DNA from: Naegleria gruberi
Lineage: Eukaryota
Reading direction: 5' to 3' (one strand)
DNA: 64,000 bases
Assembly: GCA_000004985.1 (NCBI GenBank)
Contig: GG738927.1
The notes beneath the pieces are model-generated. The model saw nothing but the letters and a program-made list of their open reading frames with translations, did no database searches and was not told the origin of the DNA. The translations under genes were made by a program, and so were the position numbers. Of this stretch, positions 18,674-62,853 are shown in pieces (within the stretch, counting starts at the first letter, position 1; every line of letters begins with the position of its first letter).

Positions 18674-20560
18674 CTAGTCCGAATCTTCCTCTTCAGTTTT
18701 TGGTTTCTGACTAAAAAAGGAGCCAATTTCACTTTGCTTCTTTTTAACTTTCAGCTTACAATTCACTTTTTCTTCCTTTCCTGTCTCCTTATCAACTATG
18801 AAAATATCATCTTCATCATCTATTTCATTCTCCTGGGGAAGAATTGATTTTTTCACAAGCTTAATATTACTCTGCTTTTTGGTTGGTTTTTTGGATGATG
18901 GCTCTGGAAATTCCTTTCCAGGAATAAATGGAGTCTGGAATAGATTGATGAGTTTCTTCACCTTCTTCTTACCAAAACCTGGCAAGTCATTCAGTTCATC
19001 AGATGTTGTCTGAATGACCTCTTTCAGTGATCCAAAGTGATTGAGCAATGTAATGTGATCTCTCTTGTTGAGTGTGTTTTTCAGAGTGGCAGCAAAGAGT
19101 TGATGCACTTCCTCAGTGTGCGAAAGTTTTTCTACCTCAACTGGTTTGGAGTTGCTATTGGAGCTACTTTCCCTACTCCATCTCCTATTTCCCTTTCGTT
19201 TACCTTGTCCTCCTGTTGATGTAACCAATGAATTGGTTGATGATTGAAGTGAGGCCAATGATTGATTAGGTCCTTGAATCAATGATGAACCCTTAGTCTC
19301 GCATGCTCTAATGGTTTCCAAATACAGTGCACATTCCTCATCTGAAAATCCACAAATCACAGTCCAATCGGCCCACATGGAAATTCTCGTTACTTCTATG
19401 AGTGCCTCATCGAGTGCAGTCTCTGAAACATAGGTTGGTGCCTTAAAGGTTCCACCATTCTCACCCTGAGAGTCCTGATGATTAGATAGATAAATTGATG
19501 AATCTCCACAGGCATCCACATGTACATCCACATTCACTAGAATGATTCGATTAGTAAACGTGCCTCTTTTACAAATTTCAGTCTTGTGAAAATTCTTAAT
19601 TCTCTCTAAAATATATTTCGGTTTGGTCATGTGAAATTTAAGACTGAGATAGAATGCAGTGGTTTGTCTTCCTAGAATATAATCAGTTAAGGTCCAATCT
19701 TTTGTAAAGTGTAATTTGAAAACCTTGTCCCGAATGTGTTTTACAATGGGATTCTTCTTTTGCACTTCATTTGCAACAATGGTTGTGGCAGTGGTGGGAA
19801 AAGGCACATACGAATTAGGTGGTACAGGATTTGATGTTACAGCAACTTGTGGACTAATGCTTTCAATCAATGGAGAAGCAGAAGCACTATTACTACTTCC
19901 AACAGAAGAAGGCGTCGATGGTGTACTACTATTAAATGGAGGAATAAATATTGGAGGAGTACTTTGATTCAAAGATGTCATAGACGACTTGACAGGAGTA
20001 ACAAAAGATGAAGATCCACTACCAACACTCGGAGAAGAATTACTCTTTTGAGAATTTTGAGAATTTTGAGATGTTTGTGAAATCCTTTGTGGAGGAATAA
20101 ACTTTTGTGGCACGAATGGCACGTTACTATTACTCGGAATGCTATTTGGTGGAGAAACCACAGTACCAGGTGTTCTATTGATAATTCTACTCGTGTAATT
20201 TGTTGTTGGTGTGTTGCTACTGCTTGCTACAGACGATGATTGTCTCGTTTGTTGTTGTTGATTGAAATTAATTAAATTATTATTATTATTGGATGATCCC
20301 AAGCCTGGAGCACTATTCGGAAGCCTCAAAGTAGCAGATGACGATGATGGTGATGATGATGATTTAAAATTCCTTTTCAATTCGGCAAGCCTTTGATTGG
20401 CATCTTGTCGATAACTTTCCAATTCTCGTTCTTCCTTTTCCTGTTCCTCATCAATATCAAAATCCATTACATTGACAATCAATCCGCCTCCTCCTCCACT
20501 ACTACCCTTCGAAGATGATGATGAATTGTTATTCCGAGAGGATGAATTGTTTTCTTGCAT
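18674..20560 (-). CDS. ercc1: DNA excision repair protein ERCC1 homologue with a long low-complexity N-terminal extension
   Basis: Central domain (KNPIVKHIRDKVFKLHF...YILGRQTTAFYLSLKFH...ILVNVDVHVD...ALYLETIRACE) aligns to the ERCC1 nuclease-like domain. C-terminal HhH2 (LLNHFGSLKEVIQTTSDELNDLPGFGKKKVKKLINLFQTPF) aligns to [41 protein letters not shown]. ATG after an A-run. Confidence 0.8.
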   Translation of the reverse strand: MQENNSSSRNNNSSSSSKGSSGGGGGLIVNVMDFDIDEEQEKEERELESYRQDANQRLAELKRNFKSSSSPSSSSATLRLPNSAPGLGSSNNNNNLINFNQQQQTRQSSSVASSSNTPTTNYTSRIINRTPGTVVSPPNSIPSNSNVPFVPQKFIPPQRISQTSQNSQNSQKSNSSPSVGSGSSSFVTPVKSSMTSLNQSTPPIFIPPFNSSTPSTPSSVGSSNSASASPLIESISPQVAVTSNPVPPNSYVPFPTTATTIVANEVQKKNPIVKHIRDKVFKLHFTKDWTLTDYILGRQTTAFYLSLKFHMTKPKYILERIKNFHKTEICKRGTFTNRIILVNVDVHVDACGDSSIYLSNHQDSQGENGGTFKAPTYVSETALDEALIEVTRISMWADWTVICGFSDEECALYLETIRACETKGSSLIQGPNQSLASLQSSTNSLVTSTGGQGKRKGNRRWSRESSSNSNSKPVEVEKLSHTEEVHQLFAATLKNTLNKRDHITLLNHFGSLKEVIQTTSDELNDLPGFGKKKVKKLINLFQTPFIPGKEFPEPSSKKPTKKQSNIKLVKKSILPQENEIDDEDDIFIVDKETGKEEKVNCKLKVKKKQSEIGSFFSQKPKTEEEDSD

Positions 20561-30008: not shown

Positions 30009-32363
30009 ATGAAAACAAGACAAATAACGCCGAGCCCTCTAACGATTTCATCATCTTCAAATCGTCCCGAAAAACATTCGAATAATAACATTAAAACTTG
30101 CTGCTTTGGAAGAAACTTTAGTTTACGAGTGAAAACTACTTTCGTATTAATTATAATGTTTCTCGGATTGATGGCACTTTGTCTGGGGATTTTACTAGCT
30201 GCCTTTTTCGTGGTTTTTCAAAATGTGGAATATCAACAAGCTAAAGAAGCAAGTAAACGAGTTTCTCGAGCATTATTGGACGATTTGAATTATTTACAGT
30301 CAAAAGTATTCGAATTTGGAGCATTTGATGATACAGTTTCCGTCTATGAAAATCTCACTCAGGAAAATATTGGAAATTACACTGAAATGTATTGGCACTG
30401 TGTTTATTTAAATAGTGTGAATGTGAATATGGCTTTTCTTTATTCGAAAGATGGAACTTTAATTACAAAAGTTCATTGCTTTAAGGGGCAAATGATAGAA
30501 CAAGTTCCTGATGAGTTTTCAAGTTTGGAAAAGAATTCGTATGGAAATTTCTTTTTACAAGATATTGAAAATGTTTGGAGTAGGAAATCTGGAATTTTAA
30601 TTCCAAAAAAGACAATTTTTGAGATGGCAACTTCTGATGAATCGAGGAATTTCCTTTCGAGTTATGAATCGAATGTGACGAATATTGTGTTGGTAGCTGC
30701 AATGCCAGTGCAGAGTACAAATTATGATTATTCGAGAGGTTTAGTCTTGTTTGCCAAGTATCAATTGGATGAACATGCTTTGGATATGGCTGAAAGAACT
30801 CAACTTTGCATGACCATGATGAATTTGAAAAACGAAACTGACCTCTATTCATTCAAGGAATCGATTGGATCGTTGGATACGAATGCATTTTCGAGTGGAA
30901 CTGATTGGAAAGTAACAAATATTACAACCTCATCCTATTTAACTGATTGGATTGATAACGAATCGTCGTTGGTTCAGTTTTTGGACTCGAGTGAAGAAAA
31001 TTCAGTGAAATTGAATAATCGTCAATGTTGGAAAGATAATATGAATGATGAAAGTTCTGTTTCCTTCAATGCTGGATCTCCTACCGATAGAATGGCTTCC
31101 TATCAAGCATTCTACACACTAGATGGAGAAAAGTCACTCATTATTCGATCCGATATTCCAAGAAAGACATTTCAAATAGGAATGGCATCATTTCTAGTTG
31201 TTTGGTCAGTCATGACTTTTATGATTGTTGTCATGTCAATTGCCATTGTCTGTTTTGTGGAAATGATAGTTCTGAGAAGAGTCATCTCACTATCAAGTAC
31301 TGTACAACGTGTGCACGACACTGTTAATTATGCAATTAGAGCTCCAAAACTAGGAAATGATGAACTAGGTCAATTATCCAAAGATCTTAACACCATGCTC
31401 GGAGAGATTGAACATGTGCAAAATCAACTCGAAAAGGACAATACAGTGATGCAGGATTTATTGGAGAAGACTGCTCTCGAAGAGGCCAAGAGTAGATGCG
31501 TCATGAATAGTATTGACGATTTCATTGTAACTGTTGACTGCTCAAATGGCATGCTTCTCAATATCAACCTCTCATTTGAGAGTAGAATCTTGAGAAAACA
31601 GAGAGCTTCCGTAAATTTTGAAGCACTCCCCTTCAATCAAGCTGTCTTTGCCTATTTTAAGGAAATTCCATCATTGGAATTGCTTTTACAAAAATTGGAA
31701 AATCTTGCCACGACTGGATCACATTGGGAAACTACCATTCTATCAGGATTTGGATTGAATATTCCAGTACATGTCACTGCTAAAAGAATTAAGGTAATTA
31801 TGGGTAAATTCACACGAGTGGATGCATACATGATTGTTGCCAGAAATTTGAGCGATCAAAACGAAATGAAACAAACCATCAAGAACAAACAAGATAAACT
31901 CGATGAAATGAAACAACATTCTGACTTTGACAGATACATGACAGATCCAATACTAAGACAACAATTTAAGGAATTTTGCACTAAGGAACGAGCTGAGGAA
32001 AATGTCATCTTTTTGGAACAAGTAATGGAATATAAGAAATTATCAAGAACTCACGAAAGAGCCAAGAAACAAAAGGAAATTATTGAAATGTTTCTTTCTG
32101 AAAATTCAGCAACACCAATCAATATTTCAAAACAAGTTTTTACAACAGAAGTGAAGAAAATTTTGGAAGGTTTTGGCCAATTACAACTTTTTGATAATTT
32201 AGAAACAATTATTAAGAGTATGCTCATTTTGGATAAGTTTAAGAGATTTATTTCACAATTTGAAACAAGTCAAATGACGACCATTGATACGGACAACATG
32301 TCTAGCTCAGGATCAATCGCATCAGATGCCAGTTATCAACACACTTTTACATCAACTGATTAA
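30009..32363 (+). CDS. Receptor-like membrane protein with TM1, an extracellular sensor domain of about 330 aa, TM2, a HAMP domain, and a C-terminal RGS (regulator of G-protein signalling) domain
   Basis: Hydrophobic segments TFVLIIMFLGLMALCLGILLAAFFVVF and IGMASFLVVWSVMTFMIVVMSIAIVCFV. HAMP: LRRVISLSSTVQRVHDTVNYAIRAPKLGNDELGQLSKDLNTMLGEI (DExGxL...FNxM pattern). RGS: ILRQQFKEFCTKERAEENVIFLEQVMEYKKL...KEIIEMFLSENSATPINIS. ATG start. Confidence 0.65.
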   Translation: MKTRQITPSPLTISSSSNRPEKHSNNNIKTCCFGRNFSLRVKTTFVLIIMFLGLMALCLGILLAAFFVVFQNVEYQQAKEASKRVSRALLDDLNYLQSKVFEFGAFDDTVSVYENLTQENIGNYTEMYWHCVYLNSVNVNMAFLYSKDGTLITKVHCFKGQMIEQVPDEFSSLEKNSYGNFFLQDIENVWSRKSGILIPKKTIFEMATSDESRNFLSSYESNVTNIVLVAAMPVQSTNYDYSRGLVLFAKYQLDEHALDMAERTQLCMTMMNLKNETDLYSFKESIGSLDTNAFSSGTDWKVTNITTSSYLTDWIDNESSLVQFLDSSEENSVKLNNRQCWKDNMNDESSVSFNAGSPTDRMASYQAFYTLDGEKSLIIRSDIPRKTFQIGMASFLVVWSVMTFMIVVMSIAIVCFVEMIVLRRVISLSSTVQRVHDTVNYAIRAPKLGNDELGQLSKDLNTMLGEIEHVQNQLEKDNTVMQDLLEKTALEEAKSRCVMNSIDDFIVTVDCSNGMLLNINLSFESRILRKQRASVNFEALPFNQAVFAYFKEIPSLELLLQKLENLATTGSHWETTILSGFGLNIPVHVTAKRIKVIMGKFTRVDAYMIVARNLSDQNEMKQTIKNKQDKLDEMKQHSDFDRYMTDPILRQQFKEFCTKERAEENVIFLEQVMEYKKLSRTHERAKKQKEIIEMFLSENSATPINISKQVFTTEVKKILEGFGQLQLFDNLETIIKSMLILDKFKRFISQFETSQMTTIDTDNMSSSGSIASDASYQHTFTSTD

Positions 32364-32488: not shown

Positions 32489-33799
32489 ATGAACCAACAA
32501 GAAGGACCAAATTTTTCCCTCCTCGCTTCATCATCATCGGACAATAACTTTATCGGGATGAATACACCATCATCGTCATCATCAAATAATTCATCATCAT
32601 TATCATCATTATCAAATAATATTCATGTTTGCGTTACTGGCGCAACTGGCTTTATCGCCACTCATCTCGTCTATCAATTATTAGCAAAGGGATATATTGT
32701 ACATGCTACGGTTCGTTCCCTTGAAAGCGGAAGAAGAGAATTAATACAAAATATATTACAATTTGATCAGAAAAATTCAAAGGAGAAGGGAACAGGGTTA
32801 TTGGTGAGTAGGGAATTGATGGAGAAGAATTTGGTGTGTTTTGAGGCTGATTTGCTCAAGTCGGGAAGTTTTGAGAAGGTAATTAAGGGATGTCGATTTG
32901 TTCATCACACTGCTTCACCTTTTAAGGTTGATGTTAAGGATCCACAGAGAGATTTAGTTGATCCTGCATTGAAGGGAACTTTGAATGTGTTGCAAGAGTG
33001 TGTTAAATTGAGAAAGAGCCAATCCAGTACTGATCCAGCAAGATTACAGAGAATTATGTTGACTAGCTCTATTGCTTCTATTGTTGAAACATCTGTTCCT
33101 GGAAAGGTTTATGATGAAACTGATTGGAATCTTGATTCTTCTGTGAATAATAATCCATATCTCTATTCGAAGGTTGTTGCTGAAAAGGCTGCTTGGACTT
33201 TAATGCAAGATGCTCAAGCTAAGAATGGTGATGACTTTTTGGAGTTAGTGACCTTGTGTCCTGCTGTTGTTATTGGACCTCCAATTAATCCAAAACTTAT
33301 CAGTCAATCTCATGAAAGTATCATGTTGATGGCCAGAGGTGAATTCCCTGTTATTTTACCACTTGATTTTGCATTTGTTGATGTTAGAGATGTTTCCAAA
33401 GCTCATATCAATGCCATGGAAAAGAATATGGACGACAAGACATACTTTGCACCATCCAAGAAGCAACGTTTCGTTGTTTCAAATGGTGTCACAACCTCAA
33501 TGAAGGATTTGGTGAATCACATGAGAGAAGCATTCCCTAATCCACCATACAAATGGAACAAGAATTTGCCAACTATTAATTTGACTGGATATCTTGGAAT
33601 TGGTGTTGGTAAATTAGCTGCCTTGATTCAACCAAAAGGATTGAGACAATACTTGAACTCTGTGATGGGCAAACCACAATTCTTCAATAATAGCAAGATT
33701 AGGAATACTTTTAATTTGGACTTTATGAATTGGAAAGATAGTGTTACAGATTCTGTTAAATTTTTGGATGAAAATGGTTTCATCACTAGCAAGTTGTAA
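32489..33799 (+). CDS. NAD(P)-dependent epimerase/dehydratase family SDR (cinnamoyl-CoA reductase/3β-HSD-like) with a Ser/Asn-rich N-terminal extension
   Basis: Rossmann motif VCVTGATGFIATHLV. Catalytic YxxxK at YSKVVAEK. 436 aa. Confidence 0.7.
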   Translation: MNQQEGPNFSLLASSSSDNNFIGMNTPSSSSSNNSSSLSSLSNNIHVCVTGATGFIATHLVYQLLAKGYIVHATVRSLESGRRELIQNILQFDQKNSKEKGTGLLVSRELMEKNLVCFEADLLKSGSFEKVIKGCRFVHHTASPFKVDVKDPQRDLVDPALKGTLNVLQECVKLRKSQSSTDPARLQRIMLTSSIASIVETSVPGKVYDETDWNLDSSVNNNPYLYSKVVAEKAAWTLMQDAQAKNGDDFLELVTLCPAVVIGPPINPKLISQSHESIMLMARGEFPVILPLDFAFVDVRDVSKAHINAMEKNMDDKTYFAPSKKQRFVVSNGVTTSMKDLVNHMREAFPNPPYKWNKNLPTINLTGYLGIGVGKLAALIQPKGLRQYLNSVMGKPQFFNNSKIRNTFNLDFMNWKDSVTDSVKFLDENGFITSKL

Positions 33800-34086: not shown

Positions 34087-37000
34087 ATGTATTCAAACAA
34101 CAACAAGTGTCATTGTGGTTTAATTGCCAAGCAAGGAACGACCTCGAAGGGAGAAAATCAGGGTAGAAAGTACACCTCCTGTTCTAAAAGTATGACTGAT
34201 AAGAGTCGATGCAAATTCTTCAAGTGGTTAGATTCATCAGAACAAACAGCAACAACCAACATATCATCTTCTTCATCATCCTTCAAAAGCAATAGCAAAT
34301 TACAGCACAGTGAGCAGGCTTTTGATGATACTTTGAACAAGACGATACAATTGATGAATAGAGTGCTTCCTTCTTCCTTGTTATCATCAACAAGTGGTTC
34401 TTCTTCTTCATCATCAAATAACAAGTCTCCTTCCAACAACACTAATAGCCAGTGCTCATCTCTCACACTCTCACAATTGTGCTCCAGTATGGAAGACTTG
34501 AATATTGACAAAGATCTTTCAAAGCCTTCTTCTTCTCAAGCTATTGATAGAGACTTCATATTGAATGATAGTCTTTTTCCTTCTTCTTCTTCAGAAGCAA
34601 GCAAGAATAGTCTTCCTCTGATTGGAAACAATCAGCATAAAGGAGGAACATCATCTTCATCGTTACCAAATTCTCTCCTTGAAGAATGTATGCAAAAGGA
34701 ATTAAATAGCAAACAATTGGAGGCTGTCTGTGCTAGCGAACATGATTGTGTATGTGTTTATAGTGGACCGGGATCTGGTAAGACAAAGGTAAGTTGTTGT
34801 TATTATTGGATGGTAGAGGGAATTAATAATTAATTATTTGATGAATATTCATCTTGTGATGATGTGATGAATTTTTTTTTAATTTTTATTTAATTTTTTT
34901 AAAAAATTCATAACGGTCATGGATCCAAATTTTAGACCATCACCAACAGGATTGCCTACTTGTGTATTGTTAAAGGAATTGAACCAAGGAATGTATTTGC
35001 CATGACTTTTACTAACAAGGCTGCTCAGGAGATGAAAACAAGACTTGTTCACCTTGTGAAATTGTACGATTTTCAAAAGAGAATTAATGCAAAGGATTTC
35101 AGTCATATTGGAACGTTTCATGCAGTTTGTGCTAATATTTTGAGAAATGAGATGCATCATTTGACTCGTATTGTTGGATTGGATCAGAAATTTATGATAT
35201 TTGATTCGGAAGAGCAGCTGTCATAATTAGGAGCTTGTACAAGTCATCAACTAATCATTCCATTAGAAGNNNNNNNNNNNNNNNNNNNNNNNNNNNNNNN
35301 NNNNNNNNNNNNNNNNNNNCTTTTAAAAAATTCGTAACGGTCATTGTAAACTTTGGGTGGATCCAAATTTTAGACCATCACCTACAGGATTGCCTACTTG
35401 TGTATTGTTAAAGGAATTGAACCAAGGAATGTATTTGCCATGACTTTTACTAACAAGGCTGCTCAGGAGATGAAAACAAGACTTGTTCACCTTGTGAAAT
35501 TGTACGATTTTCAAATTAATGCAAAGGATTTCAAGACTTGTTCACCTTGTGAAATTGTACGATTTTCAAATTAATGCAAAGGATTTCAGTCATATTGGAA
35601 CGTTTCATGCAGTTTGTGCTAATATTTTGAGAAATGAGATGCATCATTTGACTCGTCTTGTTGGATTGGATCAGAAATTTATGATATTTGATTCGGAAGA
35701 GCAGCTGTCAATAATTAGGAGCTTGTACAAGTCATCAACTAATCATTTCATTAGAAGTTTACTTCCATTGAGTTTGTCTTTGGAGGATATGGAGAAGAAA
35801 CTCTCTCCAACTCTAGTTTTACAAACGATATCACGATGTAAGAATCAACAGGTTTCAGCTGATGAATATTCGAAAGCATTCCATCAAGAAATTGAGGAAA
35901 CGGTCATTGCTGAACTATTTGTAGAATATCAACAGTATTTATCGAAACACAATGGGGTGGATTTTGATGATTTATTGCTTCATGTTGTGTACTTGTTTGA
36001 AAAATTCCCTCTAGTGAGAGAAAAGTATGCCAATCAATGTGAAGTATTATTGGTCGATGAATTTCAAGATATCAACAAGTTACAATACAAGATTGCCATG
36101 CATTTGAACTCAAAGAGGAAGAACATCTTCTTGGTTGGTGATTCCGATCAAAACATTTACACTTTCAGATTCAGTGATAGCTCAATAATGCGGGAAGTTA
36201 TCAAAAAGTATGAGAAGGAGGGAAAGAGCATGAAAGTCATCATGATGAATGAAAACTATCGATCCACAAGAAGTATTGTCCAATTTTCAGACAAAATAAT
36301 AGCTAGCAATTCTAACAGATTAAGAACTATCAGCTCTACCACTTCAAACACCACGGGTTTACCAGTTTCGATAGTCAGTTGCTCTGATGAAGCCGAGTTC
36401 ATTACAAATGAAATTGTAAAACTCACAAACATGAATAACAACATTCAATATTGCGACTTTGCAATCCTTATCAGAGTCAACTCTGCTTCTCGAGTATTCG
36501 AAGACATTTTTGATAGGAAAAAGTTGCCTTACAGAATTTTGAATTCCACAAGATTTTACGACTCTATGGAAGTGAAAGATATTCTTTCCTATGCAAAAGC
36601 TATTGCAAATCCAGATAATGATCACTTCCTGTTGAGCTGTGTGAATGTTCCAAGAAGATGCATCACTGAGGAGACAAAGTCCAAGTTGATAAAGCTTGCA
36701 GCTCAGAATAAGATGTCTCTGAGGTCAATTATCAAGAATCATAACAAGGAAATTGCTGGACATCTAGGAGCCAATGAGTTACAAACACTCATTTCCACAA
36801 TAGATTTTATCGAAAAGTCTCAAATTAATCTTCATTCTCCTTCAACTATTATGCAAGATATTATTCGGGTGATTGATTATGAATCCTACTTGAAATTCAC
36901 ACAGAAGAATATGTTCGAAACAAGATGGGAGAATTTGAAAGAGTTAATTAACATGTGTCAAGAATTTGAGTCCAAATCAACCATTCCCTCAATTTCATCA

Positions 37001-38257
37001 TTTTTACAAAGCATTTCAATTTCCACAGAGATGGAACCAATTTCAAAAGATTCATCAAATTCCATTACAATTTCCACAATCCATGCAGCCAAAGGTTTAG
37101 AATTTGGAATTGTATTTGTGGCAGGAGTTGAGAAGGGAAATATTCCATACTACAAAGCTCAGGAAAAGAATGAAATAGAGGAAGAGAGAAGATTACTGTT
37201 CGTTGCCTGTACAAGGGCTCAGTCCTTACTCTGTTTAACCAATTCCAAAACAAGATTCAGACTTGGAAAGAGTTACAACACTCAGAGTTCTGAGTTTTTG
37301 AGCATAATTCTCTCTAATCAATTCACATTCTATTCTAATTCATCATTAGCGACTCTATTGAGTGATAATTCCATATCTCAATTAAGATATGAGACTATTA
37401 ATCATTTAGTAGCTTGCAGAGACAAGAAATCTAAACAAAATCTTTCTTCCTCCTCGGATATTCTGACAAAAGATCTGAAACGAGTTAAAAATATGGAAAG
37501 TTTCGAACCTACAACCGAATCAAGCAACGTTCCAGAATATTGGTTCAATAAGGAACGATTCAAGATTGTGGACGTAACAGATACTATGAAATTAACCATT
37601 CAAGACTTGATGGATAATTCATGTGAAAAGAAAACTCTTGGAAGTGGAAAGGATCAAACGTATTTCAAGAAACAATACACTCAATTGGAAGTTATCAAAG
37701 TGGAACGAGTTGAAAATCCAAATCTCTACGGATTATATCAAGCCAAACAATCTCAAATGAAATCTTTCAAGGATAATCCCCAACCCATCCCAGTCAAAAC
37801 TGTGGAAAAAGTTCCACCCAACTCAACAGCCAAAACCTGGATTCAAAGTGTAAAATTATGCCAACAAGTTAATGAAAAATTCTTTTGGCACGGCACTGAT
37901 TCACAAGTTGTGAGCATTATTTGTGAACATGGTTTAGATGCAAGAGTGAGCTCACTTTCTGGACTATTCGGTGCAGGAATTTATTTTGCAGAATATTGTT
38001 CCAAGAGTGATCAATACTGCTCGCCAACGAATGATCTTTTTCACATGTTTCTCTGTCGAGTCATGATTGGTAATCAAATTGAAACTCTTGAAAAGGGAAA
38101 ATCTCTCAATAATATTCGAAGACCAAGTGTCATTCCAAACACCAATGGACGAACATTTGATAGTATTCTAGGAAAACCAAACATGTACAAGGAATTTGTA
38201 GTTTACGATAGTTGCCAATGCTATCCAGAATTTCTAATTACTTATAAAAGGAAATAA
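34087..38257 (+). CDS. Fusion protein: N-terminal GRF-type zinc finger, UvrD/PcrA-like SF1 helicase, and a C-terminal PARP (ADP-ribosyltransferase, H-Y-E) catalytic domain. Two exons: 34087..34788 and 35374..38257
   Basis: GRF: [26 protein letters not shown]...CKFFKWL. Helicase motifs: GPGSGKT (I), [16 protein letters not shown] (Ia), [11 protein letters not shown] (II), NYRSTRSIV (IV), [16 protein letters not shown] (V), FVACTRAQ (VI). Exon junction: GKTK + TITYRIAYL...TFTNKAA aligns to UvrD GKTRVLTHRIAWL...TFTNKAA. PARP: [11 protein letters not shown]...[17 protein letters not shown]...MYKEFVVYD...YPEFLITY, compared with PARP1 LLWHGS...GKGIYFADMVSKSANYC...YNEYIVYD. The intron 34789..35373 (GTAAGT...TTTAG) contains a 50-N gap and a duplicated exon-2 copy. 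Confidence 0.75.
34880..35760. repeat. Near-identical duplicated segment (about 390 bp × 2) on either side of a 50-N gap. Probable haplotype/assembly duplication of helicase exon 2
   Basis: 34880-35269 and 35320-35760 match except for a few substitutions and a 1-nt indel. A local 45-bp tandem duplication lies at 35500-35590. Confidence 0.7.
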
Positions 38258-38450: not shown

Positions 38451-41400
38451 ATGGAACAACGACCAAACGAAGAGCACGTGCTGAAGGAAGCATCGACGAC
38501 GTGTTCGTTATTATCATCATCATCACTATCATCAGCTTTTCGGAAAGTATCAGGAGGTGAAGAAGGAATGAATTTGAATGATTCATCGTCATCTTCTACG
38601 AGTACATGCAATAATAATCATAATAATTGTAATCGACGACATCGTCATTATCAAGAGGGAGGGCTTTCGGCATTGCCTAATGAAATTTATTTACATATAT
38701 TTTCATTTGCACTTGATCCATTTTCTCTAATCGGAAGTGTGGCTAGTATTAGACATGTGAACAAATGTTGGTTTGAATTGACGGAATCGGAATTCTTTTG
38801 GAAGGAAATTGTTATTAGATTGTTGAGACAAAAGATGATGGTGGAGAGTACGGAAGATGGTGTTGATACTCAGCAGAAGGAGGATATTGAACAATTGAAT
38901 GCAGAATATGAGGAATTGAGTAATAATTATGAAGATTTTGATGAATTTATGCAAGAATTATCGAATAGGTTTTACAAGACACATGAATTTATTGATAATT
39001 TGATATATAATACTAGAACGAGCAGATACTCGGTATTTTATAAGAAGAATGATCGATTTATTGGATGGAAAAAGTATGATGATGTGGAAAGTATTGAAGA
39101 ATATGATTCAGAGGAAGAAGGAGATGATATTAATGTGGGACCAAATCTTTTCGATAAATCCAAGGAATGGATAGATAGTTGCGGAGAGGAGCATCATACA
39201 GGAAATGTATTATTGCAAGCATGTTTGGAAATCATTTTAGGCCATGAGATGGTAGAACATTTGGGAATGAAATCGTGTGGAGTTTTCATTCAACAATTTT
39301 TCTCAAAGCTTTTCGAACCAGCAATCAAAATGATTAAAACACAGAAAGAGGCAGGAACCAAGTTGAATGTGGTGGAATTGGAAAAAACTCCAATCTTGAA
39401 TAGAAACCTACTCAACTTCATCAAGGAAAATGGAAGATGCTCCAAATTATTCCAGCAAAAAATTACAAATAATTGGAATCTTTTTGATGAACATTACTGT
39501 ACAATACCAAGGCAGTATATTCTCTTTATGGTTGAACATTTTTCGAGAGTTAAAGTCAGAGAGGGAGCATGTGAAATGAATGCAGTTAAATACATTTGCA
39601 AATCTCTCAGAGATTGTGGAATTAAAATCGAGGACTTGTGCTTTATAGGTGACAATGTAATGCCAAACTTTGAGTACACAAATGGATTGAGGTCTATGGT
39701 AAGATCTGGAAGTGGTGTTTTCTTATTGACTCATTTGGCAGTTTGGACAGAAAATTACGAGCTATTGGACTGGGCATTAACAGTGAAAAATAAGGAAGGA
39801 GATGTTACTCTGTATGATTTAGTAACCTCAACCCTGGCAGAGCATATTAATGCAGATCAAATGGACCACATAGATAGAGTTATTCCAAAAGATCTCACTG
39901 TAAAGTCGTACATTATGGCTCATCTTTCACCTGTTGAAGTGAAAACATACCTTCTCAATGAAGCTGTCATGATGAACAATGTGGAGATGGTAAGGCACTT
40001 GTGTGACAAGTATTTGTGTAATCCATTTGGACCTTGGGAACACAAGTATTCCTCTCCTTTGCAGTATGCTCTGATGCAAAGTATGCACGCCTCACTCTCC
40101 AAACATAATAACGAACAAAAGATTGTGGAAATTTTCGAGAAAAAGTATGGACACTCTGATAATTACAAAACTGAAATAGAAATTGCTAAAAAACTGAGTG
40201 CACAACGGAGAGTAACCTCAGAGACATGCTCATTGTGTTCTTGCTTGACCAGTGATAAAACTGCATTGGCTTACGAGAAAAAGTATGGAGGTGTCTACAA
40301 ACCAAATATTGAGGAAGAGAATTATGAACATGTTGAAATGAAACGAAATTTCGTATTAGAAGAAGAGACAATAGCGCCTGTGATTTCACTTGATGTACCA
40401 GGGGTACCATATGATGGTACTGAGTCAGATGAGGATGATACCGAAGAGTGCATGTCAATTCCATGGCTTCGTCACTATGTTCATAATAAGAAGAGAAAGA
40501 GAGCTCACAATGATCCAGTTATTGACACTATAATTAAGGAAAAGGAAATAATGGGACCAGTGACGGACATTGTATCGAACTTTGAGAGTGTCAATGAGCA
40601 TACTGACTTTGCTGATGATTTCTATATAGAGGTCAAAGCTCTAAATAGGACATGGGATCGCAGCAAGAGGATTAAATTAGATGAAGATGCACCAAACGAG
40701 AAGTTTACCACTACTAGAGACTCTCTCTGTTTTTCTAAACTTAATTTTAGAGAAGTAGTCCAAGCAGAATTAAGAAGACAAAAAACGGATGTCTTTCTCA
40801 GTCCACATGCAAAAATGTTGGTCCAACAAGCTGCAGAAGATTTTATTGAACATCAAATCTATCGTCTCAATAATGAAATGACCTATGGAGAGCCATCTGA
40901 TACTCAGACTGGCCGAGCCAAGACATTATTTACTGATAAGTTTACGGGAACACTGTACTTCCGATATCAATTCTTTAGAAATTGTGAAATTCATGATCAG
41001 CTTTCAACATTTGCCTTTGGAAAACATAATCTAGTATTTGAGGAAATTGTAAAACTTCTTAATGCCTTGATAGAGGAAGAGGAAGATGACGAAGAGGATG
41101 ATTTGGATTATCCATGTGATCATCTCTCTGTTAATTCTGATGATTCCATGTTATCATGCACTGCCTTAGAGTTTGGAGAAAATCATGAAGAGGGATTATT
41201 CAGAATGCCAAAGAACTTTATGGTTTACACTGATTTGGAGAATTTAAAATATTCTAAATCATTTGTTGGAGATGATGGTTATGAGAGAATTCTTGCTACT
41301 GAGATTCATCAAAACACAAAACATCACATTGTCACAAGTTCTGATCCTAAACTAATTACTAGTTGGGCTGACAATATTACAATCCATGATTCTGGAAACG

Positions 41401-41456
41401 AACATAACTTGTATGAAACTAAATTATTACAATCTCAACTCGAAAAAAATAGATAA
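38451..41456 (+). CDS. F-box-like protein (1001 aa) with an acidic stretch and a possible C-terminal histone-fold-like segment
   Basis: F-box-like LPNEIYLHIFSFALDPFSLIGSVASIRHVNKCW. Acidic run EEEEDDEEDD. LSPHAKMLVQQAAEDFIEHQI is only weakly histone-fold-like. Confidence 0.45.
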   Translation: MEQRPNEEHVLKEASTTCSLLSSSSLSSAFRKVSGGEEGMNLNDSSSSSTSTCNNNHNNCNRRHRHYQEGGLSALPNEIYLHIFSFALDPFSLIGSVASIRHVNKCWFELTESEFFWKEIVIRLLRQKMMVESTEDGVDTQQKEDIEQLNAEYEELSNNYEDFDEFMQELSNRFYKTHEFIDNLIYNTRTSRYSVFYKKNDRFIGWKKYDDVESIEEYDSEEEGDDINVGPNLFDKSKEWIDSCGEEHHTGNVLLQACLEIILGHEMVEHLGMKSCGVFIQQFFSKLFEPAIKMIKTQKEAGTKLNVVELEKTPILNRNLLNFIKENGRCSKLFQQKITNNWNLFDEHYCTIPRQYILFMVEHFSRVKVREGACEMNAVKYICKSLRDCGIKIEDLCFIGDNVMPNFEYTNGLRSMVRSGSGVFLLTHLAVWTENYELLDWALTVKNKEGDVTLYDLVTSTLAEHINADQMDHIDRVIPKDLTVKSYIMAHLSPVEVKTYLLNEAVMMNNVEMVRHLCDKYLCNPFGPWEHKYSSPLQYALMQSMHASLSKHNNEQKIVEIFEKKYGHSDNYKTEIEIAKKLSAQRRVTSETCSLCSCLTSDKTALAYEKKYGGVYKPNIEEENYEHVEMKRNFVLEEETIAPVISLDVPGVPYDGTESDEDDTEECMSIPWLRHYVHNKKRKRAHNDPVIDTIIKEKEIMGPVTDIVSNFESVNEHTDFADDFYIEVKALNRTWDRSKRIKLDEDAPNEKFTTTRDSLCFSKLNFREVVQAELRRQKTDVFLSPHAKMLVQQAAEDFIEHQIYRLNNEMTYGEPSDTQTGRAKTLFTDKFTGTLYFRYQFFRNCEIHDQLSTFAFGKHNLVFEEIVKLLNALIEEEEDDEEDDLDYPCDHLSVNSDDSMLSCTALEFGENHEEGLFRMPKNFMVYTDLENLKYSKSFVGDDGYERILATEIHQNTKHHIVTSSDPKLITSWADNITIHDSGNEHNLYETKLLQSQLEKNR

Positions 41457-44844: not shown

Positions 44845-45638
44845 TACTAATCATTTTGTTTGTTTGTTTTTTTTGAATAAATTTCATCCCATTGAATTGG
44901 GCAATCTTTTAAGCTGTTGTTATTAAACAACTTGAGATGGGAATAATTTATTGGCGTGTTGTTGGTTGTTTGTATGTTAGGTGTTAAGCACAAAATCAGG
45001 ACATGATAAAGTGGAGGTCCTTAGTAGTACCAATAGTGCGCACGCATTCTTTTTGGCCTTTTCATTTTTTCATCATTTGATGAAATTGAATAAATATTAA
45101 TATTTATTGATGATGACCGTTGTTATATTGAACATGGAATATCAGTAAAAGTATTGAATAAAGCGGGTGCAACCTTCTGCGTAATCACGTTTTTCTACTA
45201 GGAAATTGTGTTTCTGCCATTTTGCTTGTATCTCCCTCATTTGTTGATGATACCGGAAAGAAAATATAGCACTATATAGAGCCTGTGATGGTTGTTTAAA
45301 GGTGGAATTATGCCAGATGGTGAGATGAAATTATTAAATATATATAAAGTTGGCTCAATCTTCAGCTAATTATCAAAAGATTGTTGTTTGATTTCTTGTG
45401 ATGTTTCAAAATAAAGAACTTTAAAACACAAAAAAGTTGTTTGCCAAATTTCTTAAAATCATGTGTGAAGCCAATCTCCAGACGTGGCATATTGTAAGAT
45501 TTGATGAAATATTACCTTCAAATATCAAGAAAGAACACTATGTTTTCGTTTTCATTTGTAAAAAACAAAATAATGGAACTTGAGTAGGAGTTGAATTTTG
45601 TAAACTTCCGTTTTCGAATTGTAAACGTTTTAAAAAAA

Positions 45639-46826
45639 ATGCCAATAACATTCCAAGTGACTCAAGTCCATCCTGAAACTGTGAAGGTAGATGGTGATGC
45701 ATTTGATCCGAAACAAGTCCTTCCATCTCTTCCGGAAGATAGAAAGTCGACGAAACCGATCACTGATTATTATGACATCAAGCCAATTCAGTCAAGCTTT
45801 GGAAATTCACCTGTATTTAATATTGGAAGTAATTCGTTTGTGATGAGTGGTGTACAAGCCTATTCGAAACATCATCATTGGGTAATCAAACCAGATGACG
45901 TTTGGATTGCAATTTGCTCTCAATTTTCGAATTATGTAAACGAAAGATCAGAAAAGTTGAGAAGTAAATTCGTTGATTTTGATGGAAAGAAGGAATTAGT
46001 CGTGAAAGGTATTGGAACTTTATATACTGCCAATTATGAAGATCTTTCTATTCGAATGACAAGTGAAATTGCCAAAAATATTAAGGATCCAAGTGTAAGA
46101 GAATGGGTCATGCCAGATTTCACAACAACTACTCAATCAGATCGAATGGTTGGTGCAGTTGTCTTGATGGCAGCTATGAAAAAGTATTTTGATTACAAAT
46201 TTGAATTGGAATGCAATTTACCAAGTGTTACTTTATTAGGACAAGTTGAAGATTGGATTAAAATTAGAGAAAGAGCTAATCGATTGCTTGAATTTGATAC
46301 TGAGGAAGAATGTATGAAGAAATGGTCTCAATATTTATTCCCAGTTTTGGATAAATTTGTGGAATCCATTAAGGGAAATCCAGATAAGGAATGGTGGAAT
46401 AGAGTAGCTAACTTTTTAGGAGGAGGTTCAGGACCTTCTTTTATCAGTGGTTGGATTACAACTTTTTGTGTATTTTCAGAAACTGGCAAATGGTTGGGTG
46501 ATCAAAAAACAGAAGGTGAGGTTTGGTATGAGGATGAGGATGACAACGAACCAAAGGAAAAAGTAAGAGAAAGGGAATGGCCTGTCATTGATGATGAAGA
46601 AATACCAAGAGGATATGTCAGTGTTCCAATTACTGTGGATGATAATGGAACAGTTTACAAAACTGAAATGTTTGCAGGACATATTGTTGCCTCAGTATTG
46701 AACCAAAATTCAATTCAACCACGAGTTGACTGGGCACTTTTCTTAAAGAAGGAAGATTATGATAAGGAATATCAATGTGCAAATGATGAGGATGATGAGG
46801 ATAACATGGACGAAAGCATGGACTAG
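45639..46826 (+). CDS. Hypothetical conserved protein with an acidic C-terminus
   Basis: ATG at 45639 (aaaaaaaATGcca), inside track ORF 45591..46826. No catalytic motif recognised. Confidence 0.4.
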
Positions 46827-49245: not shown

Positions 49246-52200
49246 TTATTTGTTTTGTTTCACTAAACTATCGAAATCAATTGTCTTCTTCAATTTCTTT
49301 GAAGCGTTTTCAACTATTCTATTATTCTTATTCATTCGTTTGAGGAATTCAGTATTGTATCTCAATGAATAATGTGCAAAACGAAGTGATTCAATATTGA
49401 TATCCATTGCTTGAGCAATAAAATCTTCATCACTAATAATTTCGTAAGAGGCTACCTCAAGAGCTGTAACATCGTGCTGTATAGCTCTCAGAACAATATC
49501 TCTATCATTTCTCATTTCAAACAATGCATAACAGAGGGCAGAATAACTTGTTTCATGACTAACCGCGTGCATTACAATTTCCTTATCGTTTAGGAATTCA
49601 GGTACTGCAAATTGAAGTGTGTCTTGATGGTTTTGGGCACATTTTAGAACAACATTTCTGTTATGTATAAACTTAAGAGGTACATATTGCAAAACCTTTC
49701 CATTGACAGAAGCACACTCCAAAACAAATTCTTCATCGTTTTGCAGTTCTTCACTGGCATAAAGGAATGCAACAGCATCGCTTTTGATGGCTTTTAGCAT
49801 AATTTCTCTATTATTTTTAAATTCATTCTTTAACTCTGCAGACAAGTGCATAATTGAATCACCACTTAGCTCTAGTGATCTCAAAGCTATTTCTCTGTCT
49901 TCTCTTAACCTAATTGGTACGTTAAGTATATCGTAAGTTTTTGGTTCAATCTCCAAAATAAAGTTCCTATCCATTTTCAGTCTATTGGAAACATACAAAA
50001 GATTATTCATATTTACATTTACAGCCATAAGGGCAAACTGTCTATCATTTTTAAAAGAATAGTCTAAATCATTTAGTGATCTAAGTCTTAATGCAATCAT
50101 TGCTGCTTCCTTATTAAGATTCACTGGTTTCTTTAAAAATTCTGCAGGCAACCATTTTCTCAATGCTTCTAATACTTCTTCATCATTTTTCATTTCTTCA
50201 GAGATATGTTGATAACACTCTGCTGATATTTTTAAAGCTGTAAGGATGACTTCCTTATCGTTCTTCAATTCTTCAGATGCATACTGTAAGGTACTTGCAT
50301 CTTGACTGACAGCATTTAAAATAAGCTCTCTATCATTTGCAAGTGATTCTGGAACGTAATGAATTACATAACCATAAATCTTTGCCATCTTTCTCATAAA
50401 ATCTACATTACTCTTTAATCGATCTGAAACACATTCAAAAAAATAATGTCCGTACCCTGTCTCTGTATAAGATATTGCTGCTTCAACTATTTCCTCATCA
50501 TCTCTATATTGTTCTGGAACATTCTTTAGATTATTTCGATCGTATCTACATGATTCATAAACAATCTCTCTATCTAATTCTATTTCATTGTAATCACTCA
50601 ATCTGAACCCATTTCTTAGTGCAATTATTAATAATTCTCTATCATTTAGGAGAGAGCGACTTGCATATTTAAATTCACTTCCATAAAGTTGAATAGCTGT
50701 TAAAACTATTTCTCTATCTTGTTTGAATTCCTGTGGCAAAGTTTCGATGCTTCCTGTTCTTTTAGCATGTTCCAATATTAAATCTCTATCTTCTTTCAAA
50801 TTATATCCAAAGTATTGAGAAATAGTATTAAATGAATTTCTAATTGCTCTTAAAACAAATTCTCTGTCTCTTCTCACAGATTCAGGAGCATATTCTAAGA
50901 AGGTACTGTCTTTAATTATTGTACACTCTAATATTTCTGTATCCATTCTCAATTCCTTAGACGCAAAGGTAAAATTTGTTGAGTCAAATAAAATTGCCTC
51001 TAATACCAGTTCTCTGTCGTTCTTCAGCTCATCAGAAGCATATTCTAGAGCCCCATAATGTTGCTTTACAGCTAATCTGATCAATTCTCTATCATTTCTA
51101 AACTCTTCATTTAAATTCTCTAAAACTTTACGCTCGGATAGTATACAGTCTAAAATTAATTGTCTATCAGTTTTTAACTCGTCGTGAGATATATTTTCGA
51201 AACACGCTGGATCAATGTTGACGATTCTTTTTTGTCGTGATGCATTAAGTGCTTTGAAATCCTCTTTGGAATACCACATGGCATTGCTGTATTTACATTG
51301 AATATCCAATAACTCGTCAATAAAATCATTATCATTGGCTAGAGATGAATTAACGTAATCAAGAAAAGTGAAAAAATTATTTGCTCCAGAAATACAGTTC
51401 AAAATGAATTCTCTATCTTCTTTCAGATCTGTCAGTGAGGAGAGCGAGTGAGCATCTTTCGAAACAGCAAGAGTCGCTATTTCCCTATCCTTCCAGAAAA
51501 TAGGATCTGCATATTGTAAAGCCCTTCCAGATTTAACAGCATCATAAACTATTTCTCTATCCTTTTTAAATTGTGGTGAAACATCTCTCAAACTATCTCC
51601 TTTCTTCTTTACAATTTCCAAAACAAAATCTCTATCTGATCGCAAGCTTTCGGCTGCGTATAAGAAATAAAAACCTGGAGAGTTAGCAGCACTCAATACT
51701 ATTTCCTTATCAGCAGTAAATTCTTTTGGTGCAAATCTAAGAGTACACGTATATCTAGAACTTTTGGTGGATAATAGAACTATTTCTCGATCTTTTAAAT
51801 TGTCTGGAACATATTCTAGAACTGAACCGTCTTTCTTGATTGCTTTCAAAATAACATCTCTATTATTTTTCAAATTGGCTGAAACATATTGTAAACATTT
51901 TGGTTGTTGTTCAACAGCCAACCTCGCAATTTCGTCATCATCGTGAAAATGTGGTAAATGTTCGAACAGAGTTGAATCCACAAACATTTTTGGTTTACAT
52001 TTTAGTGCCTTCAACACAAAATTCTTGTCAGTCTTCAACCTTTGACTTGCAAATTCAATTGCAGAAACGTTCTCTTTGATAGCTGCCAGTACAACCAGTT
52101 CATCATTCTTCAAATCATCCGATGCATGTTCCAAAACACGACCATCAGCACGAACAATTTTAAGAAGTGCTAATTTACAATCATTGTCTGGTAACGGATT

Positions 52201-55136: not shown

Positions 55137-55862
55137 ATGTCCACAACAACAACTACTCTAGGAACAATATCCACTATCAATTCGAATATAACCTTGATGC
55201 AAACATGTATTCGAATGGATCCGTCTGGTTTCACATATGTGCCTTGGATTTGGGACATCTTTGGTGAGTGTGTTCACGATATTCGTGAGCAATCTTCCTT
55301 CGCTATTGGTATGATTTCGTTAGGTTTCTGGATTATGGCCCTGCTGCCACAAGTCATTGCCAATTTCAAGAACAGAGATGCCAGCTCGCTGTCAACTGGT
55401 TATCTCATCCAAATTACATTAGGAGATGCAGCAAGTATGACTGCAGGTATCATGAGTGGTCAATTAATTACTCAGATTTTGTTGAGTGCCTATTTTGTGT
55501 TGATGGATGTAGTCATGATTGTTCAATATATAATTTTCGTGATAATTCCAAAGATTTATAGGAAAATTGTAAAGAAAGAGGAACGTGGGGATGATTTGAA
55601 AGGCAAGGAAATGAAGGAAGTTGTGAATAATGAGAAAGTGGTAAAGAAGGAAGAAAATACAAAGCATGAGATTGTGAAGAGCTCAGTGATGATTTCGTTA
55701 TTGTCTGTTTTGGTGATGGTTGCATTCTTTGCTTCAATTGTTGGCTTTTCACGAGCTAGTTCAGAAAGTTATGCGACTACACTTTCGAATAATAGAATTT
55801 CTAGGAAACTTTTACATGCTGTTCCAGAGGGAAAGGAATATCCACAGAAGAAGCTATCACAA
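55137..55862 (+). CDS. PQ-loop repeat (cystinosin/PQLC2-like) membrane transporter, 3'-partial (runs into a 1267-N gap)
   Basis: PQ-loop motif FWIMALLPQVIANFKNRDASSLSTGY; multiple TM helices. ATG at 55137. Confidence 0.5.
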
Positions 55863-62803: not shown

Positions 62804-62853
62804 NNNNNNNNNNNNNNNNNNNNNNNNNNNNNNNNNNNNNNNNNNNNNNNNNN
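62804..62853. other. Scaffold gap (50 N) directly after the (GGGTTT)n array
   Basis: Run of exactly 50 N. Confidence 1.

What the first reader, a model, noticed from the sequence alone, without database searches (positions are those of the whole stretch)
34087..38257. GRF zinc finger – UvrD-like SF1 helicase – PARP catalytic domain encoded in one gene
One two-exon reading frame carries a GRF-type zinc finger (CxCG...GRxYxxC...CxFFxW), all seven UvrD/PcrA helicase motifs, and a C-terminal PARP catalytic domain with an intact H-Y-E triad. The PARP block strongly resembles PARP1 (WHGT / [15 protein letters not shown] / KEFVVYD versus WHGS / GIYFADMVSKSANYC / NEYIVYD). The architecture implies a single polypeptide whose DNA translocase/unwinding activity is coupled to (auto)ADP-ribosylation, with an ssDNA-binding GRF finger. 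I do not recognise this domain combination from characterised proteins.
Basis: partly seen in the sequence, partly recalled or inferred. Interest (0 to 1): 0.8.

Follow-up and report, generated by a model that had tools for sequence, protein, structure and literature searches.

The report
Helicase–PARP fusion gene in Naegleria
An unannotated gene of the amoeba Naegleria gruberi joins a single-stranded-DNA zinc finger, a complete bacterial-type DNA helicase and an ADP-ribose-writing (PARP) enzyme in one protein; I found this combination nowhere else, but the assembly is damaged inside the gene and expression is unproven.

Summary
The window is Naegleria gruberi NEG-M. Profile searches support all three domains on a repaired 1178-aa model: GRF zinc ribbon (35 bits), UvrD-helicase plus UvrD_C (233 and 192 bits) and PARP (89 bits). 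All helicase motifs and the H-Y-E triad are intact.

The real intron is 34789-34935, at a position conserved in N. lovaniensis. A 50-N gap (35270-35319) is flanked by two overlapping copies of the same ~375 bp.

The PARP module is not PARP1-like. By sequence and predicted fold it is closest to PARP15, PARP12, PARP14 and tankyrase. It belongs to a protist-wide C-terminal module, most often fused to kinases.

Three relatives carry other SF1 helicases: two UPF1/ZNFX1-like and one PIF1-like. I found no second UvrD/PcrA-PARP protein and no GRF-bearing one. No database protein corresponds to this locus.

Most likely it is an ssDNA-targeted ADP-ribosyl writer. It is a new variant of a known kind, of moderate interest, and needs resequencing and transcript proof.

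The parts
34087..34788 (+). Exon 1 (234 codons). It holds the start codon, the GRF zinc ribbon, a Ser/Asn-rich linker, the helicase Q motif (34702-34728) and motif I, GPGSGKTK (34765-34788).
   Evidence: Single ORF; stop codons lie in frame upstream of the ATG; Pfam hits and motif coordinates.
34105..34236 (+). GRF zinc ribbon, residues 7-50. Candidate zinc ligands are C8 (or H9), C10, C32 and C42; GRKY lies at 34162 and CKFFKW at 34210-34227.
   Evidence: PF06839, 35.0 bits against a cut-off of 25.9, E 1.5e-8. Closest solved structures are the NEIL3 GRF domains 7omk and 7jl5 (E 5e-6) and APE2 5u6z (E 0.31).
34789..34935 (+). Intron of 147 nt, GTAAGT...TTTTAG, phase 0.
   Evidence: Sequence. 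The junction restores GSGKTK|TITNRIAYL, which aligns with PcrA GSGKTRVLTHRIAYL. N. lovaniensis has an intron at the identical position, L001 8230-8296.
34936..35269 (+). Start of exon 2, first copy, before the gap (motifs Ia and Ib). A 1-bp deletion at about 35216 breaks the frame 54 bp before the contig end.
   Evidence: Translation and alignment of the two copies.
35270..35319 (.). Assembly gap of 50 N. Its two flanks overlap each other, so no real sequence need be missing.
35320..35755 (+). Second copy of the intron end and the start of exon 2 (acceptor AG at 35372-35373). It carries a 55-bp tandem duplication (35477-35531 and 35532-35586) that shifts the frame.
35587..37249 (+). Rest of the PcrA/UvrD-type helicase core: motif [10 protein letters not shown] at 36047, III at 36128, IV at 36251, V at 37076 and VI at 37178. 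The Pfam UvrD_C match ends at residue 843.
   Evidence: PF00580 and PF13361; PcrA 1pjr E 7e-109; NCBIfam pcrA 500 bits, above rep and uvrD.
37250..37522 (+). Inter-domain linker of about 90 residues, in frame and free of stops.
   Evidence: Part of the continuous 912-codon ORF.
37523..38257 (+). C-terminal PARP module (residues 935-1178) plus the stop codon. Landmarks are PEYW at 37532, ERVEN at 37703, H1057 at 37880-37897, Y1088 at 37976-37993, Y1099 at 38006-38020 and E1158 at 38186-38209.
   Evidence: PF00644, 89 bits; PARP15, PARP12, PARP14 and tankyrase by sequence; alignment with Naegleria paralogues; AlphaFold2 model with pLDDT 79 and pTM 0.81; Foldseek matches to tankyrase, PARP12, PARP15 and PARP14 with target TM-scores of 0.68-0.80.

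Best explanation
This is a real protein-coding gene of Naegleria gruberi that no retrieved database protein represents, probably because an assembly gap with overlapping, error-bearing flanks breaks its frame. Repaired, it encodes a protein of about 1177 aa in four parts.

1. An N-terminal GRF zinc ribbon.
2. A flexible Ser/Asn-rich tether of about 150 aa.
3. A complete PcrA/UvrD-type SF1A helicase motor.
4. After a linker of about 90 aa, a PARP catalytic module with an H-Y-E triad and no autoinhibitory helical domain.

Proposed mechanism (inferred). The GRF finger and the motor engage single-stranded DNA at gaps, 3' tails or stalled forks. The motor translocates 3'->5', unwinding duplex or clearing bound proteins. 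The tethered PARP module then uses NAD+ to ADP-ribosylate the protein itself or whatever sits next to it on that DNA. The helicase therefore supplies targeting and the PARP supplies the signal.

The PARP module is a mobile C-terminal effector cassette of protists. In Naegleria it was appended to a helicase whose bacterial relatives carry a partner-binding Tudor domain (PF21196) in addition to the helicase core.

Shown here: the domain identities, intact catalytic motifs, ORF continuity, the conserved intron position and the modular distribution of the cassette. Inferred: ssDNA binding, translocation polarity, catalytic activity, the targets and the biological role.
For: Organism. Domains. Helicase motifs and the PcrA alignment. 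GRF similarity to the NEIL3 and APE2 GRF domains.

PARP fold and triad. The E of the triad is at least 90% conserved across 48 relatives.

Continuity: GRF through Walker A is one ORF, and helicase through PARP is one 912-codon ORF.

Intron: its position is conserved with the N. lovaniensis homologue P0001.

Frame defects: both lie within a few hundred bases of contig ends at the gap, and each copy is intact where the other is broken.

Cassette behaviour: the same PARP module sits at the C-terminus of kinase, WD40, PDZ, macro, WWE and lectin proteins. It also sits on three other SF1 helicases: P0147 (UPF1-like, from a Didymoeca costata transcriptome), P0165 (ZNFX1/UPF1-like) and P0187 (PIF1-like).

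Most bacterial PcrA hits carry PF21196; the Naegleria and Willaertia helicases do not.
Against: There is no transcript or protein evidence. As assembled, the frame is broken twice, so an inactivated allele cannot be excluded. The closest homologue, from N. lovaniensis (43% identity), has neither GRF nor PARP and is not syntenic, so the fusion is not shown to be conserved. An H-Y-E triad does not prove poly- or even mono-ADP-ribosyl transferase activity. The nearest characterised PARPs (PARP12, 14 and 15) act in antiviral and RNA biology rather than DNA repair.
Confidence: 0.55

Rival explanations
1. Conflict or innate-immunity sensor-effector. The helicase senses foreign or aberrant nucleic acid, such as giant-virus or transposon replication intermediates. 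The PARP cassette is then the effector, as with the antiviral PARP12, PARP13 and PARP14 and the ZNFX1 helicase in animals. The domain architecture is the same as in the best explanation; only the biological role differs.
For: The PARP module is closest to PARP15, PARP12 and PARP14. Relatives include macro-PARP (PARP14-like) proteins and a ZNFX1-domain helicase-PARP. The cassette is lineage-expanded and shuffled onto many partners. The fusion is absent from the nearest Naegleria homologue, a patchiness typical of conflict genes. UvrD-like helicases also serve in bacterial defence: GajB models match at 316 bits.
Against: The helicase matches the housekeeping PcrA model better than GajB (500 against 316 bits). 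GRF fingers are known from DNA-repair and topology enzymes (NEIL3 and APE2). There is no induction or infection data.
Confidence: 0.2
2. Recently inactivated gene. One or both frame defects (the 55-bp tandem duplication and the 1-bp deletion) are real, so no full-length GRF-helicase-PARP protein is made.
For: As assembled, no uninterrupted frame links exon 1 to the long ORF. The two overlapping copies differ by three substitutions, all non-synonymous, plus indels, which could reflect two real, decaying alleles. No model exists in the protein sets.
Against: Both defects lie near contig ends beside a gap, where read quality is lowest, and each copy is intact where the other is defective. The remaining ~2.7 kb is stop-free with every catalytic motif intact.
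Confidence: 0.15
3. Gene-model or assembly artefact. The GRF, helicase and PARP parts belong to separate products, either through a chimeric contig join or through a separate downstream start for a PARP-only protein.
For: Stand-alone PARP-module proteins of 220-265 aa exist in N. gruberi (P0126 and P0127). The region has a known assembly problem.
Against: There is no gap and no stop between helicase motif VI and the PARP module; the next N run is at 55863. The helicase has no stop codon of its own before 38255. GRF and Walker A share one ORF. In relatives the module is usually C-terminal on a larger protein.
Confidence: 0.05

Closest known systems
Bacterial PcrA/UvrD/Rep SF1A helicases (G. stearothermophilus PcrA, PDB 1pjr)
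   Same: A full-length colinear match to the motor (E 7e-109, 34-36% identity to many bacterial PcrA proteins) with all motifs present.
   Different: This is a eukaryotic gene with a spliceosomal intron. It lacks the C-terminal Tudor domain (PF21196) and carries GRF and PARP instead. It scores below the NCBIfam pcrA equivalog cut-off (500 against 911 bits).
Heterolobosean PcrA-like helicases (N. lovaniensis C9374_014022 = P0001; Willaertia magna P0002 and P0003)
   Same: These are the closest helicase relatives (38-44% identity). P0001 has an intron at the same position.
   Different: They are helicase-only proteins of 779-891 aa. No GRF or PARP lies in or around the N. lovaniensis locus, and there is no synteny.
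Human PARP15, PARP12 and PARP14 (mono-ARTs) and tankyrase-1/2
   Same: These are the best sequence and fold matches to the catalytic module (E about 1e-14; target TM-scores 0.68-0.80). The module has no regulatory helical domain. Its C-terminal motif is YPEFLITY.
   Different: PARP12, 14 and 15 have H-Y-[I/L] triads, whereas this protein keeps H-Y-E as tankyrase does. The accessory domains also differ: macro, WWE, CCCH or ankyrin/SAM there, GRF plus helicase here.
PARP1
   Same: The H-Y-E triad, local motifs around H and Y, and the concept of a DNA-binding zinc finger plus a PARP domain.
   Different: The match is weak and partial (E 3e-6). There is no WGR, helical regulatory domain, BRCT or PARP-type zinc finger. 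This protein is not a clade 1 PARP.
Naegleria PARP-module paralogues, including the 'unplaced' short N. gruberi PARPs of Citarelli et al. 2010 (PMC2964712)
   Same: The same module of about 245 aa (45-52% identity): PxYW...TLGSGRDQ...RIEN...HGT...[14 protein letters not shown]...EF(I/V)VYD...YPEF.
   Different: The partners are protein kinase, SNase plus kinase, ricin-B lectin, or none. None carries a helicase.
Other SF1 helicase-PARP fusions, all uncharacterised: Didymoeca costata P0147 (UPF1-like), metagenomic P0165 (ZNFX1/UPF1-like) and P0187 (PIF1-like)
   Same: An SF1 helicase followed by the same C-terminal PARP module.
   Different: The helicases are SF1B families (AAA_11/AAA_12 or PIF1), not UvrD/PcrA. 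No GRF was detected. Because the helicase families are unrelated, these are independent fusions.
Human ZGRF1 (GRF finger plus UPF1-like helicase), from my own knowledge
   Same: A GRF zinc finger paired with an SF1 DNA helicase.
   Different: ZGRF1 has an SF1B 5'->3' motor and no PARP domain. It was not compared directly here.

Membership tests
PARP catalytic domain superfamily (PF00644) | Profile match above the curated cut-off | tested here: met
   89.2 bits against 26.7, E 3.3e-25, residues 980-1176.
PARP catalytic domain superfamily (PF00644) | ADP-ribosyltransferase fold | tested here: met
   AlphaFold2 model with pLDDT 79 and pTM 0.81. Foldseek probability is 1.00 to tankyrase, PARP12, PARP15 and PARP14, with target TM-scores of 0.68-0.80.
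PARP catalytic domain superfamily (PF00644) | H-Y-E NAD+-binding and catalytic triad | tested here: met
   H1057 (WHGT), Y1088 (GIYFAE) and E1158 (KEFVVYD). E1158 aligns with the Leu of PARP15's H-Y-L triad. H, Y and E are invariant or at least 90% conserved in relatives.
PARP catalytic domain superfamily (PF00644) | NAD+-dependent ADP-ribosyl transfer, mono or poly | not testable with these tools
   This needs a biochemical assay.
PARP1-like (clade 1) PARPs | WGR and helical regulatory (PARP_reg) domains N-terminal to the catalytic domain | tested here: not met
   No such Pfam hit at E <= 0.1. PARP1 structures match only residues 122-196 of the 252-residue C-terminal query, at E 3e-6.
UvrD/PcrA/Rep SF1A helicases | UvrD-helicase (PF00580) and UvrD_C (PF13361) profiles above cut-off | tested here: met
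   233.5 and 192.3 bits.
UvrD/PcrA/Rep SF1A helicases | Intact conserved motifs Q, I, Ia, II, III, IV, V and VI | tested here: met
   Colinear alignment to PcrA 1pjr; motifs located. This holds only after repair of the assembly overlap.
UvrD/PcrA/Rep SF1A helicases | Equivalence to bacterial PcrA (NCBIfam TIGR01073 equivalog cut-off) | tested here: not met
   500 bits against a cut-off of 911. It is PcrA-like, not a PcrA equivalog.
UvrD/PcrA/Rep SF1A helicases | ssDNA-dependent ATPase activity and 3'->5' translocation | not testable with these tools
   Inferred from family membership only.
GRF zinc finger (PF06839) | Profile match above cut-off, with the four zinc ligands and the GR(F/Y) and FFxW signatures | tested here: met
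   35.0 bits against 25.9. The sequence has C8/H9/C10, GRKY, C32 and C42-KFFKW. NEIL3 GRF matches at E 5e-6.
GRF zinc finger (PF06839) | ssDNA binding | not testable with these tools
   Inferred from what I know of the APE2, NEIL3 and TOP3A GRF domains.
Gabija GajB-type defence helicases | Best match to GajB models rather than to housekeeping helicases | tested here: not met
   GajB scores 316 bits, below pcrA at 500 bits. The companion protein GajA cannot be assessed in a eukaryotic locus.

The most novel reading that the evidence does not exclude
SF1 helicase-PARP fusions would be a recurrent but unrecognised class of nucleic-acid-guided ADP-ribosyl writers. This class includes the GRF-PcrA-like-PARP protein here and the independent UPF1/ZNFX1-like and PIF1-like fusions. 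In this reading the motor threads or tracks a single strand and delivers it, or its ends, to the PARP module. The nucleic acid itself is then ADP-ribosylated, as DarT does on ssDNA and as PARP10, PARP11 and PARP15 are reported to do on phosphorylated RNA ends (both from my own knowledge). Alternatively, proteins bound to the strand are modified. This could serve genome defence against viruses or mobile elements.
Probability: 0.15. Interest if true: 0.8.

Novelty: new variant of a known kind. Interest (0 to 1): 0.5.

Why it matters
PARPs are normally brought to nucleic acids by zinc fingers, WGR or RNA-binding domains, and helicases meet ADP-ribose as readers (ALC1) or as substrates. A motor helicase fused covalently to an ADP-ribose writer would be a compact system for asking how translocation on ssDNA is coupled to ADP-ribosylation.

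The same PARP cassette has been joined independently to three different SF1 helicase families. That suggests a selected functional link rather than an accident.

The case also shows that a gene can be missed by annotation because of an assembly gap. The two eukaryote-wide PARP surveys (PMC2964712, PMC4245714) describe no helicase-containing PARP.

Tried and rejected
- Exact look-ups of the 912-aa ORF and of the neighbouring proteins in the gene-position index found nothing. I therefore could not see the official gene calls at this locus. Lack of annotation is inferred from the absence of any near-identical protein.
- The third homologue search used a GRF plus helicase N-terminus chimera. It returned only short bacterial UvrD fragments, so it says nothing about whether GRF-UvrD proteins exist elsewhere.
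- A metagenome scan with the helicase C-terminus, linker and PARP query found no relative.
- There is no synteny with the N. lovaniensis helicase locus: the neighbouring genes do not match. Orthology is therefore uncertain.
- P0141 looked like a helicase-PARP candidate because its match started inside the helicase part of the query. It is a kinase-PARP protein, and the extra match is a coiled-coil-like linker.
- The PARP1-like reading was rejected.
- Bacterial contamination as the source of the PcrA-like helicase was rejected. The gene has a spliceosomal intron, its 2-kb windows (GC 0.34-0.35) match the rest of the window away from the N runs (about 0.32-0.37), it has eukaryotic neighbours, and it is fused to eukaryotic-type domains.
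- Literature searches for helicase/UvrD/GRF-PARP architectures found nothing relevant.
Full report
**Source and setting.** Two neighbouring ORFs are identical to annotated Naegleria gruberi NEG-M proteins. ORF 30009-32363 equals EFC36662 and ORF 32489-33799 equals EFC36663, a cinnamyl-alcohol dehydrogenase, on a 174-kb scaffold. GC content is about 34%. The neighbouring genes are ordinary eukaryotic genes.

**What is in the sequence.** ORF 34087-34833 starts with a GRF-type zinc ribbon. It runs through a Ser/Asn-rich stretch into the helicase Q motif and Walker A, GPGSGKTK, which ends at 34788 and is followed by GTAAGT. A 912-codon ORF (35519-38257) carries the rest of a UvrD/PcrA helicase and, with no stop in between, a PARP domain. 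Shuffles of that stretch gave at most 147 stop-free codons.

**Assembly problem.** A 50-N gap lies at 35270-35319. The ~375 bp on each side of the gap are the same sequence.
- The copy before the gap (34936 onward) starts exon 2 cleanly with [14 protein letters not shown]...[12 protein letters not shown], but loses one base about 54 bp from the contig end.
- The copy after the gap carries a 55-bp tandem duplication (35477-35531 and 35532-35586).
- Each copy is intact where the other is defective.
- Joining them gives a clean 1178-aa ORF. Removing one repeat unit from the second copy gives a clean 1176-aa ORF.

I read this as a gap whose flanks overlap, either low-quality contig ends or unmerged haplotypes. 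A real lesion in one allele cannot be excluded. The true intron is 34789-34935 (147 nt, phase 0).

**Support for the splice.** The junction restores GSGKTK|TITNRIAYL, which is colinear with PcrA GSGKTRVLTHRIAYL. The closest homologue, N. lovaniensis P0001, reads [15 protein letters not shown]. Its gene has an intron at exactly that point: GKTK|gtttgt...aaaag|TITYRIAY, L001 8230-8296. GRF and Walker A share exon 1, so the GRF-helicase link does not depend on splicing at all.

**Domain tests.** Pfam hits on the repaired model:

| Domain | Residues | Bits |
|---|---|---|
| Zn_ribbon_GRF | 7-50 | 35.0 (cut-off 25.9) |
| UvrD-helicase | 206-497 | 233.5 |
| UvrD_C | 507-843 | 192.3 |
| PARP | 980-1176 | 89.2 |

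No WGR, PARP_reg, BRCT or macro domain was found.

- Helicase. It aligns over its whole length with G. stearothermophilus PcrA (1pjr, E 7e-109). It scores best against the NCBIfam pcrA model: 500 bits, against 424 for rep, 386 for uvrD and 316 for GajB. All motifs are intact.
- GRF. Its best solved relatives are the NEIL3 GRF domains (E 5e-6) and APE2 (E 0.31).
- PARP. By sequence the best matches are PARP15, PARP12 and PARP14 (E 7e-15 to 5e-13) and tankyrase (3e-12). PARP1 reaches only 3e-6, and only over the H...Y segment.
- Predicted fold. An AlphaFold2 model of the module (pLDDT 79, pTM 0.81) matches tankyrase-1/2, PARP12, PARP15 and PARP14 with target TM-scores of 0.68-0.80.
- Triad. H1057, Y1088, the stacking Y1099 and E1158 are all present. 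E1158 aligns with the Leu of PARP15's H-Y-L triad.

**Relatives of the helicase.** After N. lovaniensis (44%) and two Willaertia magna proteins (42% and 38%), the next hits are bacterial PcrA proteins at 34-36% identity. None of the best 120 hits has a PARP or GRF domain. Most bacterial hits carry the PcrA/UvrD Tudor domain PF21196, and the heterolobosean proteins do not. The N. lovaniensis locus has no GRF or PARP coding potential and is not syntenic.

**Relatives of the PARP module.** The module is about 245 aa long. It starts at PEYW and includes a clade-3-like ERVEN...Y element. It recurs in Naegleria on kinases (N. fowleri P0124 and P0133, N. gruberi P0134, N. lovaniensis P0135), on a ricin-B lectin protein (P0128), and alone (P0126, P0127).

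I then ran an exhaustive HMMER scan of 1.84 billion representative proteins. The query was designed so that helicase-plus-PARP proteins would outrank single-domain hits. It found 25,296 hits, and almost all of the best 150 carry the PARP module, usually at the C-terminus. Named sources include Naegleria, the choanoflagellates Didymoeca and Bicosta, Fabomonas, Apiculatamorpha and the cryptophyte Hanusia. Partners found among the 64 of the best 150 relatives that I Pfam-scanned:
- protein kinase, in 12 of 48 relatives scanned together, plus 6 of the 16 scanned individually;
- WD40, PDZ, macro, WWE, C2, TIG and DUF4116 domains;
- three other SF1 helicases: P0147 (AAA_11/AAA_12, UPF1-like, from a D. 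costata transcriptome), P0165 (ZNFX1 domain plus AAA_11/AAA_12) and P0187 (PIF1).

A local search with the N. gruberi helicase against all of these found only one helicase-only protein, P0276. SF1 helicase-PARP fusions therefore recur, and they are independent events because the helicase families differ. The UvrD/PcrA type, and any GRF-bearing version, was seen only here.

**Annotation and literature.** No protein near-identical to any part of this gene appeared in four searches, even though other N. gruberi proteins are in those databases. The locus therefore appears to be unannotated. Citarelli et al. 2010 list only short, unplaced N. gruberi PARPs that retain H-Y-E. Neither that paper nor Perina et al. 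2014 contains the words helicase, UvrD or GRF. Other literature searches found nothing on this architecture.

**Interpretation.** The best-supported reading is a genuine tripartite protein.
- The GRF finger and the PcrA-like motor engage ssDNA.
- The PARP cassette, which lacks the autoinhibitory helical domain of PARP1-3, modifies the protein itself or its neighbours there.
- The domain identities, intact motifs, ORF continuity and cassette behaviour are shown here.
- Substrate, polarity, catalytic activity and biological role are inferred.

A defence or conflict role is a serious alternative for the same architecture, given the PARP12/14/15-like and ZNFX1-linked relatives and the patchy distribution. 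Pseudogenisation remains possible until the gap region is resequenced.

**Verdict.** The core observation is real and the combination is apparently undescribed. I rate it a new variant of a known kind, of moderate interest.

Noticed in passing
window 38451-41456 (+): The gene immediately downstream, on the same strand and 193 bp after the stop codon, encodes a 1001-aa protein with an F-box-like domain (PF12937, E 1.4e-7). The eukaryotic UvrD-family helicase FBH1 is an F-box-helicase fusion, so this adjacency is a curiosity; it is probably coincidence.
   Followed up: partly
L002 2431-4378 and 6185-7763 (ENA contig NODE_869; the PARP protein is labelled Naegleria fowleri): The closest PARP-module relative, the kinase-PARP protein P0124, lies about 2 kb downstream of two ORFs with ADP-ribosylglycohydrolase domains (PF03747). 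This may be a writer-eraser neighbourhood.
   Followed up: no
window 49246-52413 (-): A 1055-aa protein made of about 20 DUF4116 repeats (E 8e-187). DUF4116 is also a fusion partner of the same PARP module in two unrelated relatives.
   Followed up: no
window 18674-20560 (-): ORF with an ERCC1/Rad10 binding domain and an HhH motif (PF03834, E 7e-23). This is a nucleotide-excision-repair gene about 14 kb upstream of the helicase-PARP gene.
   Followed up: no
window 30009-32363 (+): The annotated 'predicted protein' EFC36662 has a clear RGS domain (E 2e-15) plus sub-threshold CHASE4 and HAMP matches. That would be a bacterial-style sensor front end on a eukaryotic RGS protein.
   Followed up: no
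window 55863-57129, 59543-59920 and 62804-62853: Three further N runs (1267, 378 and 50 bases). The apparent long ORFs at 55137-57335 run across the first of these and are artefacts. The low GC reported for 56-58 kb has the same cause.
   Followed up: partly
P0165 (ENA metagenome, 2162 aa), P0147 (Didymoeca costata) and P0187 (Logan, 693 aa): Uncharacterised SF1B helicase-PARP fusions (ZNFX1/UPF1-like and PIF1-like) that share the PARP cassette. Together with this gene they suggest a recurrent helicase-writer theme worth a dedicated survey.
   Followed up: partly
window 45591-46826 (+): Full-length DUF4419 protein (E 1e-111), function unknown.
   Followed up: no
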